Origin: Candidatus Aenigmatarchaeota archaeon
GTDB taxonomy: Archaea > Aenigmatarchaeota > Aenigmatarchaeia > CG10238-14 > SpSt-28
Direction: 5' to 3'
NCBI GenBank assembly: GCA_032249395.1
Contig: JAVVFY010000005.1
Location: 1-51,908 of the forward strand
DNA: 51,908 bases
The translations under genes were made by a program, and so were the position numbers. Position 1 is the stretch's first letter; the number at the start of each line of letters is the position of its first letter. Below are positions 26,685 to 43,375 of the stretch, in pieces. The notes beneath the pieces were generated by a model. That model was not told where the DNA came from and made no database searches. It worked only from the letters and a program-made list of their open reading frames with translations.

Positions 26685-26802
26685 CGCTGGGGGTGGGATT
26701 TGAACCCACACGGGCGTAAAGCCCACCGGCTTTCTTCATTTTAATCAGTCCTTGAGTCTAAAAACTCAAGGCCGGCGCCATACCTGGTTAGGCGACCCCA
26801 GC
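26685..26802 (-). tRNA. tRNA-Ser(TGA) with 33-nt intron at 37/38 (26732-26764)
   Basis: GCTGGGG/CCCCAGC acceptor, G73, long variable arm, CCGGC-CT-TGA-G[intron]A-GCCGG. Confidence 0.93.
26733..26757 (-). ncRNA. Putative intron-encoded guide-D'-C' box module targeting U34 of tRNA-Ser
   Basis: ACTCAAGG-A-CTGA-TTAAA-ATGAAGA; the guide is the reverse complement of CCTTGAGT in the host tRNA. Confidence 0.65.
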
Positions 26803-36039: not shown

Positions 36040-36150
36040 AGCCCCGTCGTCTAGCGGCCAAGGATACCGGGCTTTGGTCTATAACCAAAGCTTTGACAAA
36101 AGATGATAGGAAGAAACCCGGGGACGGCGGTTCGAATCCGCCCGGGGCTA
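36040..36150 (+). tRNA. tRNA-Gln(TTG) with 38-nt intron at 37/38 (36078-36115)
   Basis: A1:U72 AGCCCCG/CGGGGCT acceptor; CCGGG-CT-TTG-G[intron]A-CCCGG; BHB with CTTT/GAAG helix, GGT and AAA bulges, CTAT/ATAG stem. Confidence 0.95.
36084..36109 (+). ncRNA. Putative intron-encoded guide-D'-C' box module targeting U34 of tRNA-Gln
   Basis: ACCAAAGC-T-TTGA-CAAAAG-ATGATAG; the guide is the reverse complement of GCTTTGGT in the host tRNA. Confidence 0.6.
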
Positions 36151-43130: not shown

Positions 43131-43250
43131 GGTTGGCGGCCAGATCGGGAGGGAAACACCCGGTCTCGTTCCGATCCCGGAAGTTAAGCCTCCCGGAGGT
43201 GTGGAAAGTACTGCTCCGCATGGAGCGGGAAATCCACGTCGCCGCCAACC
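43131..43250 (+). rRNA. rrf: 5S rRNA
   Basis: GGTTGGCGGC/GCCGCCAACC helix I; ACACCCGGTCTCGTTCCGATCCCGGAAGTTAAGCC; AGTA loop; 120 nt. Confidence 0.95.
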
Positions 43251-43302: not shown

Positions 43303-43375
43303 GCCCTCGTCGTCTAGTGGTCTAGGATGCAGGCCTGTCACGCCTGAGACCCGGGTTCGAATCCCGGCGGGGGCG
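43303..43375 (+). tRNA. tRNA-Asp(GTC)
   Basis: GCCCTCG/CGGGGGC acceptor; CAGGC-CT-GTC-AC-GCCTG; G73. Confidence 0.97.

What the first reader, a model, noticed from the sequence alone, without database searches (positions are those of the whole stretch)
26731..26771. tRNA-Ser(UGA) intron: canonical CUGA, near-consensus C' box and an imperfect BHB
The intron is TTTTTAG-ACTCAAGG-A-CTGA-TTAAA-ATGAAGA-A. ACTCAAGG pairs with CCTTGAGT (up to 10 bp in trans with one G-U), placing D+5 on U34. The C'-like ATGAAGA supplies the GAAG strand of the BHB helix, leaving a G35-G mismatch against CTTG. This suggests the box is kept at the cost of a perfect splice motif. The guide duplex and the BHB are mutually exclusive, which could order modification before splicing (inference).
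Basis: partly seen in the sequence, partly recalled or inferred. Interest (0 to 1): 0.85.

Follow-up and report, generated by a model that had tools for sequence, protein, structure and literature searches.

The report
Mini methylation guide inside tRNA intron
The intron of this archaeal serine tRNA gene appears to carry a stripped-down guide-RNA module that pairs with the tRNA's own anticodon and would mark its first letter for sugar methylation before the intron is removed, a design that recurs in a dozen tRNAs of this tiny genome and in its relatives.

Summary
tRNA-Ser(UGA) lies on the minus strand (26802..26685) with a 33-nt intron at 37/38. The intron reads loop, ACUCAAGG, A, CUGA, UUAAA, AUGAAGA, A. 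The 8-mer pairs with nt 31-37 plus the first intron base, so the fifth base upstream of CUGA faces U34.

This is not a one-off. In the same 753-kb genome, whose relatives are labelled Aenigmatarchaeota, 12 tRNA introns share the module: guide, one spacer base, a D'-like box, a 3-8 nt linker and a C'-like box. Ten aim at nt 34 and two (Thr UGU, Cys GCA) at nt 39. These are the two sites guided by the known tRNA-Trp intron of Haloferax.

Guides co-vary with anticodons; the putative BHB helix does not. The box pair next to a T-arm occurs in 113 of 118 genomes of the order. Fibrillarin, Nop5, L7Ae and two EndA paralogues are encoded.

Best reading (about 0.68): a single-K-loop, intron-borne C/D-type guide for 2'-O-methylation of U34, acting before splicing. 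There is no RNA or modification data. Only one box pair is present, and synthetic one-site complexes lost site specificity. This is a new variant of a known kind, and interest is high.

The parts
26685..26802 (-). tRNA-Ser(UGA) gene with intron (pre-tRNA of 118 nt, class II with a long variable arm)
   Evidence: Rfam tRNA, 45.9 bits. ARAGORN -i calls Ser(tga) i(38,33). Letters checked.
26765..26802 (-). 5' exon (nt 1-37). The anticodon UGA is at 26768-26766 and the wobble base U34, the proposed methylation target, is at 26768.
   Evidence: G37 and A38 are inferred from the intron-less Ser(GGA) loop CUGGAGA in the same genome and from the conserved AA|A 3' junction.
26732..26764 (-). 33-nt intron at the canonical 37/38 position
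   Evidence: ARAGORN's own cut is two bases further 5', which would give A37; the 37/38 cut is my inference.
26750..26757 (-). Guide ACUCAAGG, the complement of C31-G37 plus the first intron base. Its fourth base counted from the 3' end (position 5 upstream of D') faces U34.
   Evidence: 8 of 8 positions paired and contiguous. It is the MFE hairpin and the RNAalifold consensus. Compensatory changes are seen in orthologues.
26749..26749 (-). One-base spacer (position 1 upstream of D'), unpaired. It is A here and U in the other 11 modules of the genome.
26745..26748 (-). Box D' (CUGA)
   Evidence: The GA is invariant in 10 of 10 Ser(UGA) orthologues.
26740..26744 (-). 5-nt linker UUAAA closing the putative K-loop
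   Evidence: Linkers are 3-7 nt in the 12 modules of this genome.
26733..26739 (-). Box C'-like AUGAAGA (6 of 7 to RUGAUGA). Its last five bases overlap the conserved intron tail GAAGAA, which would form the central BHB helix with nt 32-34.
   Evidence: The same AUGAAGA serves as box C or C' in full-size C/D RNAs with 10-13-nt spacers, 12 nt in most, in introns of relatives.
26685..26731 (-). 3' exon (nt 38-73). A38 is at 26731 and nt 39-43 (GCCGG) at 26730-26726.
36040..36150 (+). Second example in the window: tRNA-Gln(UUG) with a 38-nt intron of the same design. Guide ACCAAAGC is at 36084-36091, spacer U at 36092, D' UUGA at 36093-36096, linker at 36097-36102, C' AUGAUAG at 36103-36109, tail GAAGAA at 36110-36115 and U34 at 36074.
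   Evidence: Rfam tRNA, 47.4 bits. 8 of 8 guide positions pair, with position 5 opposite U34. Letters checked. ARAGORN mislabels it 'Stop tta'.

Best explanation
The intron of pre-tRNA-Ser(UGA) is a minimal box C/D-type methylation guide that targets its own tRNA.

Proposed steps (all inferred unless marked):
1. In the unspliced transcript the 8-nt guide pairs with nt 31-37 of the same molecule. A second molecule is possible instead; cis versus trans is unresolved.
2. CUGA and AUGAAGA, joined by a 5-nt linker, fold into a K-loop that binds L7Ae.
3. Nop5-fibrillarin is recruited and 2'-O-methylates the nucleotide paired to the fifth guide base upstream of D', which is the wobble base U34.
4. 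The guide duplex and the K-loop both use bases that the central helix of the splice motif needs (nt 32-34 and the tail GAAG). The RNP must therefore leave before the splicing endonuclease can cut at 37/38, which orders modification before splicing.

Shown: the sequence anatomy, the register, the covariation, the conservation and the presence of the protein genes. Inferred: K-loop formation, protein binding, methyl transfer and the order of events.

The Ser intron is one member of a genome-wide set of 12 such introns, 10 aimed at nt 34 and 2 at nt 39. The set is spread through the organism's order.
For: 1) Register. In all 12 introns of this genome that carry the box pair, a 5-8-bp contiguous complement starts at position 2 upstream of D'. 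It puts position 5 opposite nt 34 in 10 tRNAs (Ser UGA, Ser CGA, Glu UUC, Gln UUG, Lys UUU, Arg UCU, Leu CAA, Leu UAA, Met CAU, Trp CCA) or opposite nt 39 in 2 (Thr UGU, Cys GCA). Own-target contiguous pairing averages 6.4 bp, against 1.73 for the 90 non-own guide/target combinations.

2) Known sites. Positions 34 and 39 are the two sites guided by the Haloferax tRNA-Trp intron. Stand-alone C/D RNAs aim at nt 34 of Leu(CAA), Leu(UAA), Met and Trp in Pyrococcus (passages of PMC7994747) and of Trp and Gln in Pyrobaculum (passage of PMC6009581).

3) Covariation in Ser orthologues (alignment A3, 9 rows).
- Guide hairpin: 98.3% of cells paired, with 0 of 500 shuffles reaching this.
- Compensatory changes at 31:pos2 and 34:pos5. 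Sliding the partner by one column drops pairing to 45-49%.
- RNAalifold predicts the same hairpin on its own.
- The partner of G35 in the BHB helix never pairs (0 of 9), and the partner of nt 34 is not compensated in Ser(CGA).

4) Relatives, automated test.
- The sample was 60 box-bearing tRNA regions from 10 genomes.
- In 46 tRNAs the anticodon stem could be placed independently of the guide.
- 86.6% of guide cells pair when position 5 is set opposite nt 34, against 27-53% at slides of -4 to +4.
- 37 are in register. They cover 10 anticodon labels, one of which (CGG) is a misplaced stem.
- Positions 34-36 show G:C, A:U and U:A alternation.
- Adding reading by eye, 54 of 59 usable regions are in register: 51 on nt 34 and 3 on nt 39.

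5) The guide follows the target, not the splice site. In Leu(CAA) of four relatives the module sits in an intron at 30/31, 5' of the anticodon, and still aims at C34 (L091, L092, L094, L159).

6) Box identity. Full-size double-guide C/D RNAs with 10-13-nt spacers (12 nt in most), found in tRNA introns of relatives, use the same box variants: AUGAAGA, AUGAGGA, UUGA, CAGA, CCGA.

7) Conservation. The box pair plus T-arm pattern occurs in 113 of 118 genomes and 46 of 46 genera of the order, with 2 hits for the reversed control.

8) Machinery. Fibrillarin (234 bits), the adjacent Nop5 (211 bits), L7Ae (96.7 bits) and two EndA paralogues are encoded.

9) Logic of the set. All five U34 tRNAs of split codon boxes found in the genome (Glu, Gln, Lys, Arg UCU, Leu UAA), plus Met and Trp, carry the nt-34 guide. 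Nm34 is documented in thermophilic archaeal tRNAs (passages of PMC7668247).
Against: No RNA, modification or binding data exist for this organism or its relatives.

Only one box pair is present. There is no terminal C/D pair and no 12-nt spacer to an upstream box C.
- The abstract of PMC1635284 reports that a synthetic single-site complex is active but loses site specificity.
- It also says earlier one-motif constructs were not viable.

The boxes are loose.
- D' is UUGA, CCGA or CAGA in 8 of 12 modules of this genome.
- The second GA of C' is often lost, as in AUGAUAG and AUGAAAG.
- The bare box pair is common by chance in this 32% G+C genome: 437 of 448 regex hits lie outside tRNAs.

Guide duplexes of 5-8 bp are shorter than the 10-12 bp I recall as usual for archaeal guides.

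The modules are probably homologous, so their shared register is not 12 independent events. Relatives are kin, so the shuffle controls overstate.

Pairing between anticodon and intron is common in tRNA introns generally.

Ser(UGA) and Ser(CGA) read a four-codon box, where a need for Nm34 is not obvious.

Fifteen of the 54 'in register' calls in the wider sample, and 13 of 30 in the first sample, were read by eye.
Confidence: 0.68

Rival explanations
1. The module is a protein-binding or folding element only. The K-loop binds L7Ae, or nothing at all, and the hairpin masks the anticodon. This would stabilise or time pre-tRNA folding and splicing at high temperature, with no methyl transfer.
For: Only one box pair is present, and single-site complexes lost specificity in vitro (abstract of PMC1635284). 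The hairpin is the most stable fold of the arm and competes with the splice motif: -50.8 versus -45.7 kcal/mol. L7Ae binds K-turns outside guide RNAs in other archaea (title and abstract of PMC5539422 in the listing).
Against: It does not explain why the spacer to D' is exactly one base in 12 of 12 modules, so that position 5 always faces nt 34 or nt 39. It does not explain why these are the two sites known from the tRNA-Trp intron. It does not explain why a module in a 30/31 intron still aims at C34. Sliding the register by one base halves the pairing.
Confidence: 0.12
2. The anticodon-complementary hairpin is part of the substrate recognised by this lineage's splicing endonuclease (a relaxed, non-BHB motif), and the boxes are incidental.
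For: The central BHB helix is poor (2-4 of 4 pairs) in all ten nt-34 introns. The genome has two EndA paralogues of 223 and 400 aa. Multi-unit EndA types accept relaxed motifs (abstracts of PMC3239211 and PMC5829648 in the listings).
Against: - Introns without the module are present in the same genome and must also be spliced: Ile UAU, Tyr GUA and the 11-12-nt introns of Arg UCG, Pro GGG, Phe GAA and Glu CUC.
- In the nt-39 class and in the 30/31 introns the duplex has a different position relative to the splice sites but the same register to D'.
- The GA of D' and the UGA of C' are invariant in the Ser orthologues.
Confidence: 0.08
3. The module is a decaying remnant of a full-size intronic C/D RNA with no present function.
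For: Relatives in other families carry full-size C/D RNAs of 53-65 nt in tRNA-Ser introns. One tRNA of this genome, Leu UAG, has what looks like a degenerate copy (read by eye).
Against: Compensatory changes keep the guide matched to nt 31 and nt 34 within the genus. The design is kept in 46 of 46 genera of the order. The full-size Ser-intron RNAs do not target their own tRNA (best complement 3-7 bp), so the self-guide is not their leftover.
Confidence: 0.05
4. Chance resemblance in an A+T-rich intron.
For: The bare box-pair regex hits 448 times in 753 kb.
Against: The reversed-pattern control gives 0 hits in this genome against 11, and 2 across the 118 genomes of the order. The register is shared by 12 of 12 modules.
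Confidence: 0.01

Closest known systems
[quoted passage not shown]
   Same: It is encoded in the 37/38 intron of the tRNA it modifies. It aims at nt 34 and nt 39, and it must act on the unspliced or separate RNA before or apart from splicing. I read passages of PMC7994747, PMC11408192 and PMC4090602. The primary papers were not held.
   Different: The Trp intron is a full-size double guide with both C/D and C'/D' pairs (median about 65 nt per PMC4090602). It is restricted to tRNA-Trp, guides both sites from one intron and was shown to work in trans. Here there is one box pair, one guide, introns of 25-45 nt and one site per tRNA. The 12 tRNAs per genome include Ser, Glu, Gln, Lys, Arg, Leu, Met, Thr and Cys.
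C/D-like RNA in the 66-nt intron of Nanoarchaeum equitans elongator tRNA-Met
   Same: It comes from a DPANN-type reduced genome and is an intronic C/D-like RNA in tRNA-Met (abstract and passages of PMC3491384).
   Different: It is a single tRNA and a longer RNA with a stable GC hairpin. No self-target at a fixed register is described in the passages I read.
Stand-alone archaeal C/D sRNAs that target the wobble position (Pyrococcus guides for Leu CAA, Leu UAA, Met and Trp; Pyrobaculum sR26, sR27, sR45, sR46)
   Same: They have the same target position and largely the same tRNAs, and they follow the same D/D'+5 rule.
   Different: They are separate genes that act in trans, with the two-motif architecture and 12-nt guides.
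Synthetic single-site ('hemi') box C/D RNPs
   Same: They have one K-turn motif plus one guide (abstract of PMC1635284).
   Different: They are engineered, act in trans and were reported to lose site specificity. The natural module has its target tethered in the same hairpin, which might restore specificity (my inference).
Intron-dependent anticodon modifications in eukaryotes (for example m5C34 of tRNA-Leu CAA)
   Same: An intron paired to the anticodon is needed to modify nt 34 before splicing (passages of PMC4090602 and PMC11408192).
   Different: A protein enzyme reads the intron-containing structure. There are no guide boxes and no fibrillarin.

Membership tests
Archaeal box C/D methylation guide RNA | A box C-type (RUGAUGA) and a box D-type (CUGA) motif placed so that they can form a K-turn or K-loop | tested here: met
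   CUGA, a 5-nt linker, then AUGAAGA (6 of 7). The same variants occur in full-size C/D RNAs of relatives. The fold itself was not tested.
Archaeal box C/D methylation guide RNA | Two motif pairs (terminal C/D and internal C'/D') with about 12-nt spacers | tested here: not met
   Only one pair is present in the intron. There is no box C upstream of the guide and no box D downstream of C' (read). So this is not a canonical member.
Archaeal box C/D methylation guide RNA | An antisense guide immediately upstream of D or D', with the target nucleotide paired to the fifth base upstream | tested here: met
   8 contiguous bp from position 2, with position 5 opposite U34. The same register holds in 12 of 12 modules of the genome.
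Archaeal box C/D methylation guide RNA | A guide-target duplex of about 10 bp or more (length recalled, not from a call) | tested here: inconclusive
   8 bp in cis, or 10 bp with one G-U if in trans, for Ser(UGA). The other modules have 5-8 bp.
Archaeal box C/D methylation guide RNA | The core proteins L7Ae, Nop5 and fibrillarin are encoded | tested here: met
   All score over the Pfam cut-offs, and the fibrillarin and Nop5 genes are adjacent.
Archaeal box C/D methylation guide RNA | 2'-O-methylation of the predicted target | not testable with these tools
   No RNA run holds the locus and no modification data exist.
Intron-encoded pre-tRNA guide (tRNA-Trp type) | The guide lies in the intron of the tRNA that it targets, at nt 34 and/or nt 39 | tested here: met
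   The intron at 37/38 targets its own U34. Thr and Cys introns of the genome target nt 39.
Intron-encoded pre-tRNA guide (tRNA-Trp type) | Both guides (nt 34 and nt 39) in one full-size C/D RNA | tested here: not met
   Each intron has one guide.
Archaeal BHB tRNA intron | Two 3-nt bulges separated by a 4-bp helix at the splice sites | tested here: not met
   The central helix is C32:G, U33:A, U34:A plus a G35-G mismatch, so 3 of 4. G35 is unpaired in 9 of 9 aligned Ser introns. The motif is relaxed. The BHB-like fold is 5.1 kcal/mol less stable than the fold that keeps the guide hairpin.
Archaeal BHB tRNA intron | A splicing endonuclease is encoded | tested here: met
   Two EndA paralogues of 223 and 400 aa, each with the N-terminal and catalytic domains. 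Their subunit type was not determined.

The most novel reading that the evidence does not exclude
In this DPANN order most tRNA introns may be kept because each is a self-contained, single-K-loop methylation guide. This would be a natural 'half' C/D RNP whose substrate is tethered to the guide in one hairpin. It would install Nm34 on every split-box U34 tRNA plus Met, Trp, Leu and Ser, or Nm39 on Thr and Cys, before splicing. That would give a direct functional reason for retaining 37/38 introns. It would also show that the two-motif architecture thought necessary for site-specific C/D methylation can be replaced by tethering in cis.
Probability: 0.5. Interest if true: 0.9.

Novelty: new variant of a known kind. 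Interest (0 to 1): 0.8.

Why it matters
Why tRNA introns persist at position 37/38 is an old open question. Intron-encoded guides have been treated as a curiosity. The passages I read call tRNA-Trp 'a unique example' (PMC4090602), and tRNA-Trp remains the only example a 2024 review gives (PMC11408192), with one further tRNA-Met case in Nanoarchaeum (PMC3491384).

Here a whole set of tRNAs in a very small genome, and in 113 of 118 genomes of its order, carries a minimal guide aimed at the wobble base or at nt 39. If the guide is active, three things follow.
- tRNA introns would be tied to decoding fidelity in reduced genomes.
- It would provide the smallest natural C/D guide: about 20 nt of guide, D', linker and C'.
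- It would challenge the view that two box pairs are needed for site specificity.

All of this can be tested with a 118-nt transcript and three recombinant proteins.

Tried and rejected
Covariance model. MAFFT could not align the ten modules of different tRNAs, because variable loops and co-varying arms were misaligned (A1 and A2). No covariance model was built. I used an IUPAC pattern and my own register scripts instead.

Rfam. No family other than tRNA matches the locus, even at E up to 10. One Tetrahymena C/D family scores 11.5 bits on the opposite strand and is noise.

Expression. The look-up of sequencing runs listed no RNA holder. Read laying was therefore not used. Nothing can be said on expression, splice junction or circular intron.

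Stand-alone C/D sRNAs in this genome. Three regex scans gave nothing convincing.
- 0 hits.
- 4 hits against 2 in the reversed control.
- 24 against 7 for box C ... box D, none with internal boxes when read by eye.
This is a weak negative from simple patterns, not proof of absence.

Targets of the full-size intronic C/D RNAs of relatives. They show no convincing complement in their own pre-tRNA (3-7 bp). Only one-mismatch hits of unknown meaning turned up in this genome. I dropped this line.

ARAGORN's intron boundaries would give A37. I rejected them in favour of 37/38, which gives G37, from the Ser(GGA) paralogue and the conserved AA|A junction. This is an inference.

The idea that Thr(UGU) and Cys(GCA) lack a guide was my first reading and was wrong. 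Their guides pair with the 3' junction and put position 5 on nt 39.

Literature. Six full-text searches and the passages read found no description of single-box-pair guides in tRNA introns, nor of such guides in Ser, Glu, Gln, Lys, Arg, Thr or Cys tRNAs. The primary tRNA-Trp papers were not held and supplements are closed. Supplementary sRNA tables, for example those of PMC6009581, could hold relevant cases that I could not see.

Full report
WHAT IS THERE

The finding lies on the minus strand. Rfam places a tRNA at 26802..26685 (45.9 bits) with a 36-nt insertion in the anticodon loop. ARAGORN in intron mode calls tRNA-Ser(UGA) with a 33-nt intron. The default run missed it.

Read 5' to 3', the anticodon arm is:
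CCGGC CUUGAG | UUUUUAG ACUCAAGG A CUGA UUAAA AUGAAGA A | A GCCGG
The window coordinates are listed under parts and were checked.

I place the splice sites at 37/38, which gives a mature loop CUUGAGA. The reasons are that the intron-less Ser(GGA) of the same genome has CUGGAGA and that all comparable introns end in AA|A. ARAGORN's own cut, two bases further 5', would give A37. The 37/38 placement is an inference.

- The 8-mer is the exact complement of nt 31-37 plus the first intron base. It extends to 10 bp with one G-U if the loop constraint is removed (read).
- The fifth base upstream of CUGA faces U34.
- The intron tail GAAG pairs with C32, U33 and U34 and leaves a G35-G mismatch.

FOLDING

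The guide hairpin is the minimum-energy structure of the whole pre-tRNA (-52.7 kcal/mol, z -4.2, 0 of 200 shuffles as good). It is also the minimum-energy structure of the arm alone (-15.6 kcal/mol, z -3.0, 4 of 200).

- Forcing the anticodon stem keeps a 7-8-bp guide hairpin stacked on it (-50.8 kcal/mol).
- Forcing the anticodon stem plus the three possible pairs of the central splice helix costs a further 5.1 kcal/mol (-45.7).

So the guide duplex excludes the central BHB helix but not the anticodon stem. The sheared-pair bases of the C' box (G-6 and A-5 counted from the intron end) are also the bases the central helix would use. A K-loop and the splice motif therefore also exclude each other (read).

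THE ORGANISM

The window is one of 25 contigs of a 753-kb, 32% G+C genome estimated 89.5% complete.
- Public relatives of its fibrillarin at 80-93% identity are titled Candidatus Aenigmatarchaeota, a DPANN group.
- DNA runs that hold the locus are labelled hot-springs metagenomes. Leaving out three possible source runs, one run of another study holds 0.85 of the sampled words.
- Fibrillarin and the adjacent Nop5, L7Ae, and two EndA paralogues of 223 and 400 aa are encoded.

THE WIDER PATTERN IN THE SAME GENOME

Printing every intron-bearing tRNA and scanning for a D'-like box, a short linker and a C'-like box shows that the Ser intron is one of 12 with the same module:
guide, one spacer base (U in 11, A in Ser UGA), YYGA or CAGA, 3-7 nt, AUGANNN.

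- Ten put position 5 opposite nt 34: Ser UGA, Ser CGA, Glu UUC, Gln UUG (in the window, 36040-36150), Lys UUU, Arg UCU, Leu CAA, Leu UAA, Met CAU (elongator type, judged from its anticodon stem) and Trp CCA. They have 5-8 contiguous pairs from position 2.
- Two, Thr UGU and Cys GCA, at first looked guide-less. Their guides pair with the last two intron bases plus nt 38-43 and put position 5 on nt 39 (7 and 8 contiguous pairs).
- Each guide fits its own tRNA: a mean of 6.4 contiguous pairs, against 1.73 for the 90 non-own combinations. The few good cross-fits are between near-identical anticodon loops.
- Introns without the boxes have no such segment: Tyr GUA, Ile UAU, the second intron of Leu UAG, and the 11-12-nt introns of Arg UCG, Pro GGG, Phe GAA and Glu CUC.

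The bare box pair is frequent by chance here (448 regex hits, 11 in tRNAs). It is the context and the register that carry the evidence.

COVARIATION IN THE SER ORTHOLOGUES

Full-length orthologues of the gene were found in eight other genomes at 86-97% identity, and one in a second genus of the family. Introns shrink from 33-35 nt to 25-29 nt.

All ten keep the GA of D' (CUGA in 8, CCGA in 1, UUGA in 1) and the UGA of C'.

On the 9-row alignment A3, which includes the paralogous Ser(CGA):
- The guide hairpin has 98.3% of cells paired.
- Compensatory changes occur at nt 31:position 2 (C-G in 6, U-A in 3) and at nt 34:position 5 (U-A in 8, C-G in 1).
- 0 of 500 shuffles reach the observed pairing, and sliding the partner by one column drops pairing to 45-49%.
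- nt 31 also co-varies with nt 39, so one base is kept complementary to two partners.
- RNAalifold predicts the hairpin by itself.
- The proposed central splice helix does not co-vary. The partner of G35 pairs in 0 of 9 rows, and the partner of nt 34 is not adjusted in Ser(CGA).

Across the ten nt-34 introns of the genome the tail is GAAGAA in 7 and differs by one base in 3. This gives 2-4 of 4 central pairs regardless of the anticodon.

The G35-G mismatch is therefore a consequence of a fixed tail. In Ser(UGA) the C' box overlaps this tail. In Gln, Glu and Leu CAA the box sits upstream of it.

RELATIVES

The pattern YYGA-N2-8-ATGA-N10-40-T-arm finds 11 sites in this genome, all in tRNA introns.
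- It occurs in 113 of 118 genomes and 46 of 46 genera of the order, with 1-12 sites per genome. The reversed control gives 2 hits.
- In the rest of the phylum it occurs in 87 of 253 genomes, mostly 1-2 sites each. The control gives 4 hits over all 371 genomes.

First sample, 30 loci with one per genome:
- The script found 6 or more contiguous pairs in register with nt 34 in 15.
- By eye, 8 more are in register with one mismatch or another D' choice.
- 3 are Leu(CAA) modules sitting in an intron at 30/31 that still aim at C34.
- 2 aim at nt 39 (Thr, Cys).
- 2 are not in register.

Second sample, 60 regions from 10 genomes, seven of the order and three of another family:
- 1 region was cut by a contig end, leaving 59.
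- 36 are nt-34 guides and 3 are nt-39 guides by script.
- 15 are nt-34 guides by eye, where the anticodon stem was interrupted by a second intron or had a mismatch.
- 2 are ambiguous, with an AUGA-type D'.
- 3 are full-size C/D RNAs without a self-target.

A stricter automated test placed the anticodon stem without reference to the guide in 46 tRNAs:
- 86.6% of guide cells pair with position 5 opposite nt 34, against 27-53% at slides of -4 to +4.
- 37 are in register over 10 anticodon labels, one of which is a misplaced stem.
- Position 5 is G:C in 17 and A:U in 18, with similar alternation at nt 35 and nt 36.

New targets seen in relatives include Gly UCC.

Full-size double guides with 10-13-nt spacers, 12 nt in most, in tRNA-Ser, Arg CCU and Thr CGU introns of other families use the same box variants: AUGAAGA, AUGAGGA, UUGA, CAGA and CCGA. 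This supports reading AUGAAGA and the non-CUGA D' boxes as real boxes in this lineage.

WHAT IT MOST LIKELY DOES

The anatomy fits a C/D-type guide in every respect that can be read from sequence, except that there is one box pair instead of two. Three observations favour guidance over a merely structural hairpin.
- The invariant one-base spacer always sets position 5 on nt 34 or nt 39.
- These are the two sites guided by the Haloferax tRNA-Trp intron. nt 34 of Leu CAA, Leu UAA, Met, Trp and Gln is targeted by stand-alone guides in Pyrococcus and Pyrobaculum (passages read).
- The guide follows the target when the intron sits elsewhere, as in the 30/31 introns.

The choice of tRNAs also makes sense. 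All five U34 tRNAs of split codon boxes, plus Met and Trp, are covered. Nm34 derivatives are documented in thermophilic archaeal tRNAs. Ser UGA and Ser CGA, which read a four-codon box, are the unexplained members.

WEAKNESSES

- There are no RNA or modification data.
- The single box pair runs against in-vitro work in which a one-site complex was active but not site-specific (abstract read).
- The boxes are loose.
- Duplexes are short.
- The modules and the genomes are related, so the counts are not independent.
- Part of the wider tallies was made by eye.
- Whether the guide works in cis, with the target tethered (which might replace the second motif as the ruler), or in trans as shown for tRNA-Trp cannot be decided here.

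COMPARISON AND NOVELTY

The closest known system is the intron-encoded guide of pre-tRNA-Trp. A C/D-like RNA in the Nanoarchaeum tRNA-Met intron is the only other case named in what I read.

The present module fails the two-motif criterion of canonical C/D RNAs and the two-guide criterion of the Trp type. I therefore do not file it as a canonical member. It most likely works like one.

Six full-text searches found no description of such minimal intron guides, or of intron guides in Ser, Glu, Gln, Lys, Arg, Thr or Cys tRNAs. Primary tRNA-Trp papers and all supplements were out of reach.

Verdict: a real feature and a new variant of a known kind. Mechanism confidence is about 0.68 and interest is 0.8.

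Noticed in passing
window 36040-36150 (+): tRNA-Gln(UUG) has a 38-nt intron with the same guide / D' / C' module aimed at U34. ARAGORN mislabels it 'Stop tta' because it misplaces the intron.
   Followed up: yes
G000 C1:71188-71287 (Thr UGU) and C1:89844-89947 (Cys GCA): These introns carry the same box pair, but the guide pairs with the 3' intron end plus nt 38-43. This puts D'+5 on nt 39, a second target class that also appears in relatives (L080, L098, L110, L140, L153).
   Followed up: yes
L091, L092, L094 and L159 (Leu CAA of four relatives): The module sits in an intron at about 30/31, upstream of the anticodon, with the target 3' of the K-loop. It still aims at C34.
   Followed up: partly
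G000 C9:29202-29327 (Lys UUU), C6:36742-36876 (Leu UAA), C6:11912-12041 (Leu UAG), C3:65486-65598 (Arg UCU), C1:35200-35286 (Gln CUG): These tRNAs appear to have a second, short intron in the 5' strand of the anticodon stem or in the D-arm region. ARAGORN mislabels them as Stop, Asn, Phe, Ser and '???'. The boundaries were read by eye only. The first intron of Leu(UAG) looks like a degenerate copy of the guide module.
   Followed up: partly
L041-L048, L050, L051, L059 (tRNA-Ser), L108 and L129 (Arg CCU), L102 (Thr CGU), L131 (Gly UCC): tRNA introns of 53-65 nt in other families of the order look like full-size double-guide C/D sRNAs (C, a 10-13-nt spacer, D', C', a 10-13-nt spacer, D). They have no complement in their own tRNA. 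One D guide is conserved across three genomes. Their targets are unknown.
   Followed up: partly
G000, whole genome: Simple patterns found no convincing stand-alone full-size C/D sRNA gene, although fibrillarin, Nop5 and L7Ae are present. Intron modules may be a large share of this organism's guides, or its free guides may be atypical.
   Followed up: partly
G000 C1:83060-83153: tRNA-Ile(UAU) has an 18-nt box-less intron and a perfect 4-bp central BHB helix. tRNA-Ile(UAU) was also noted in ARMAN genomes in a passage of PMC3239211.
   Followed up: no
G000 C11:3498-4214: ARAGORN proposes a tRNA-Arg(UCU) with a 625-nt intron. This may be spurious, since another Arg(UCU) is on C3.
   Followed up: no
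window 43132-43250 and 43303-43375 (+): A 5S rRNA (88.6 bits) is followed 52 nt later by tRNA-Asp(GUC). No 16S or 23S rRNA matched in the window.
   Followed up: no
alignment A3, columns 2-4 with 29-31: RNAalifold also pairs nt 28-30 of the anticodon stem with the CUG of box D'. In naked RNA this would mask D'. It may be meaningless.
   Followed up: no
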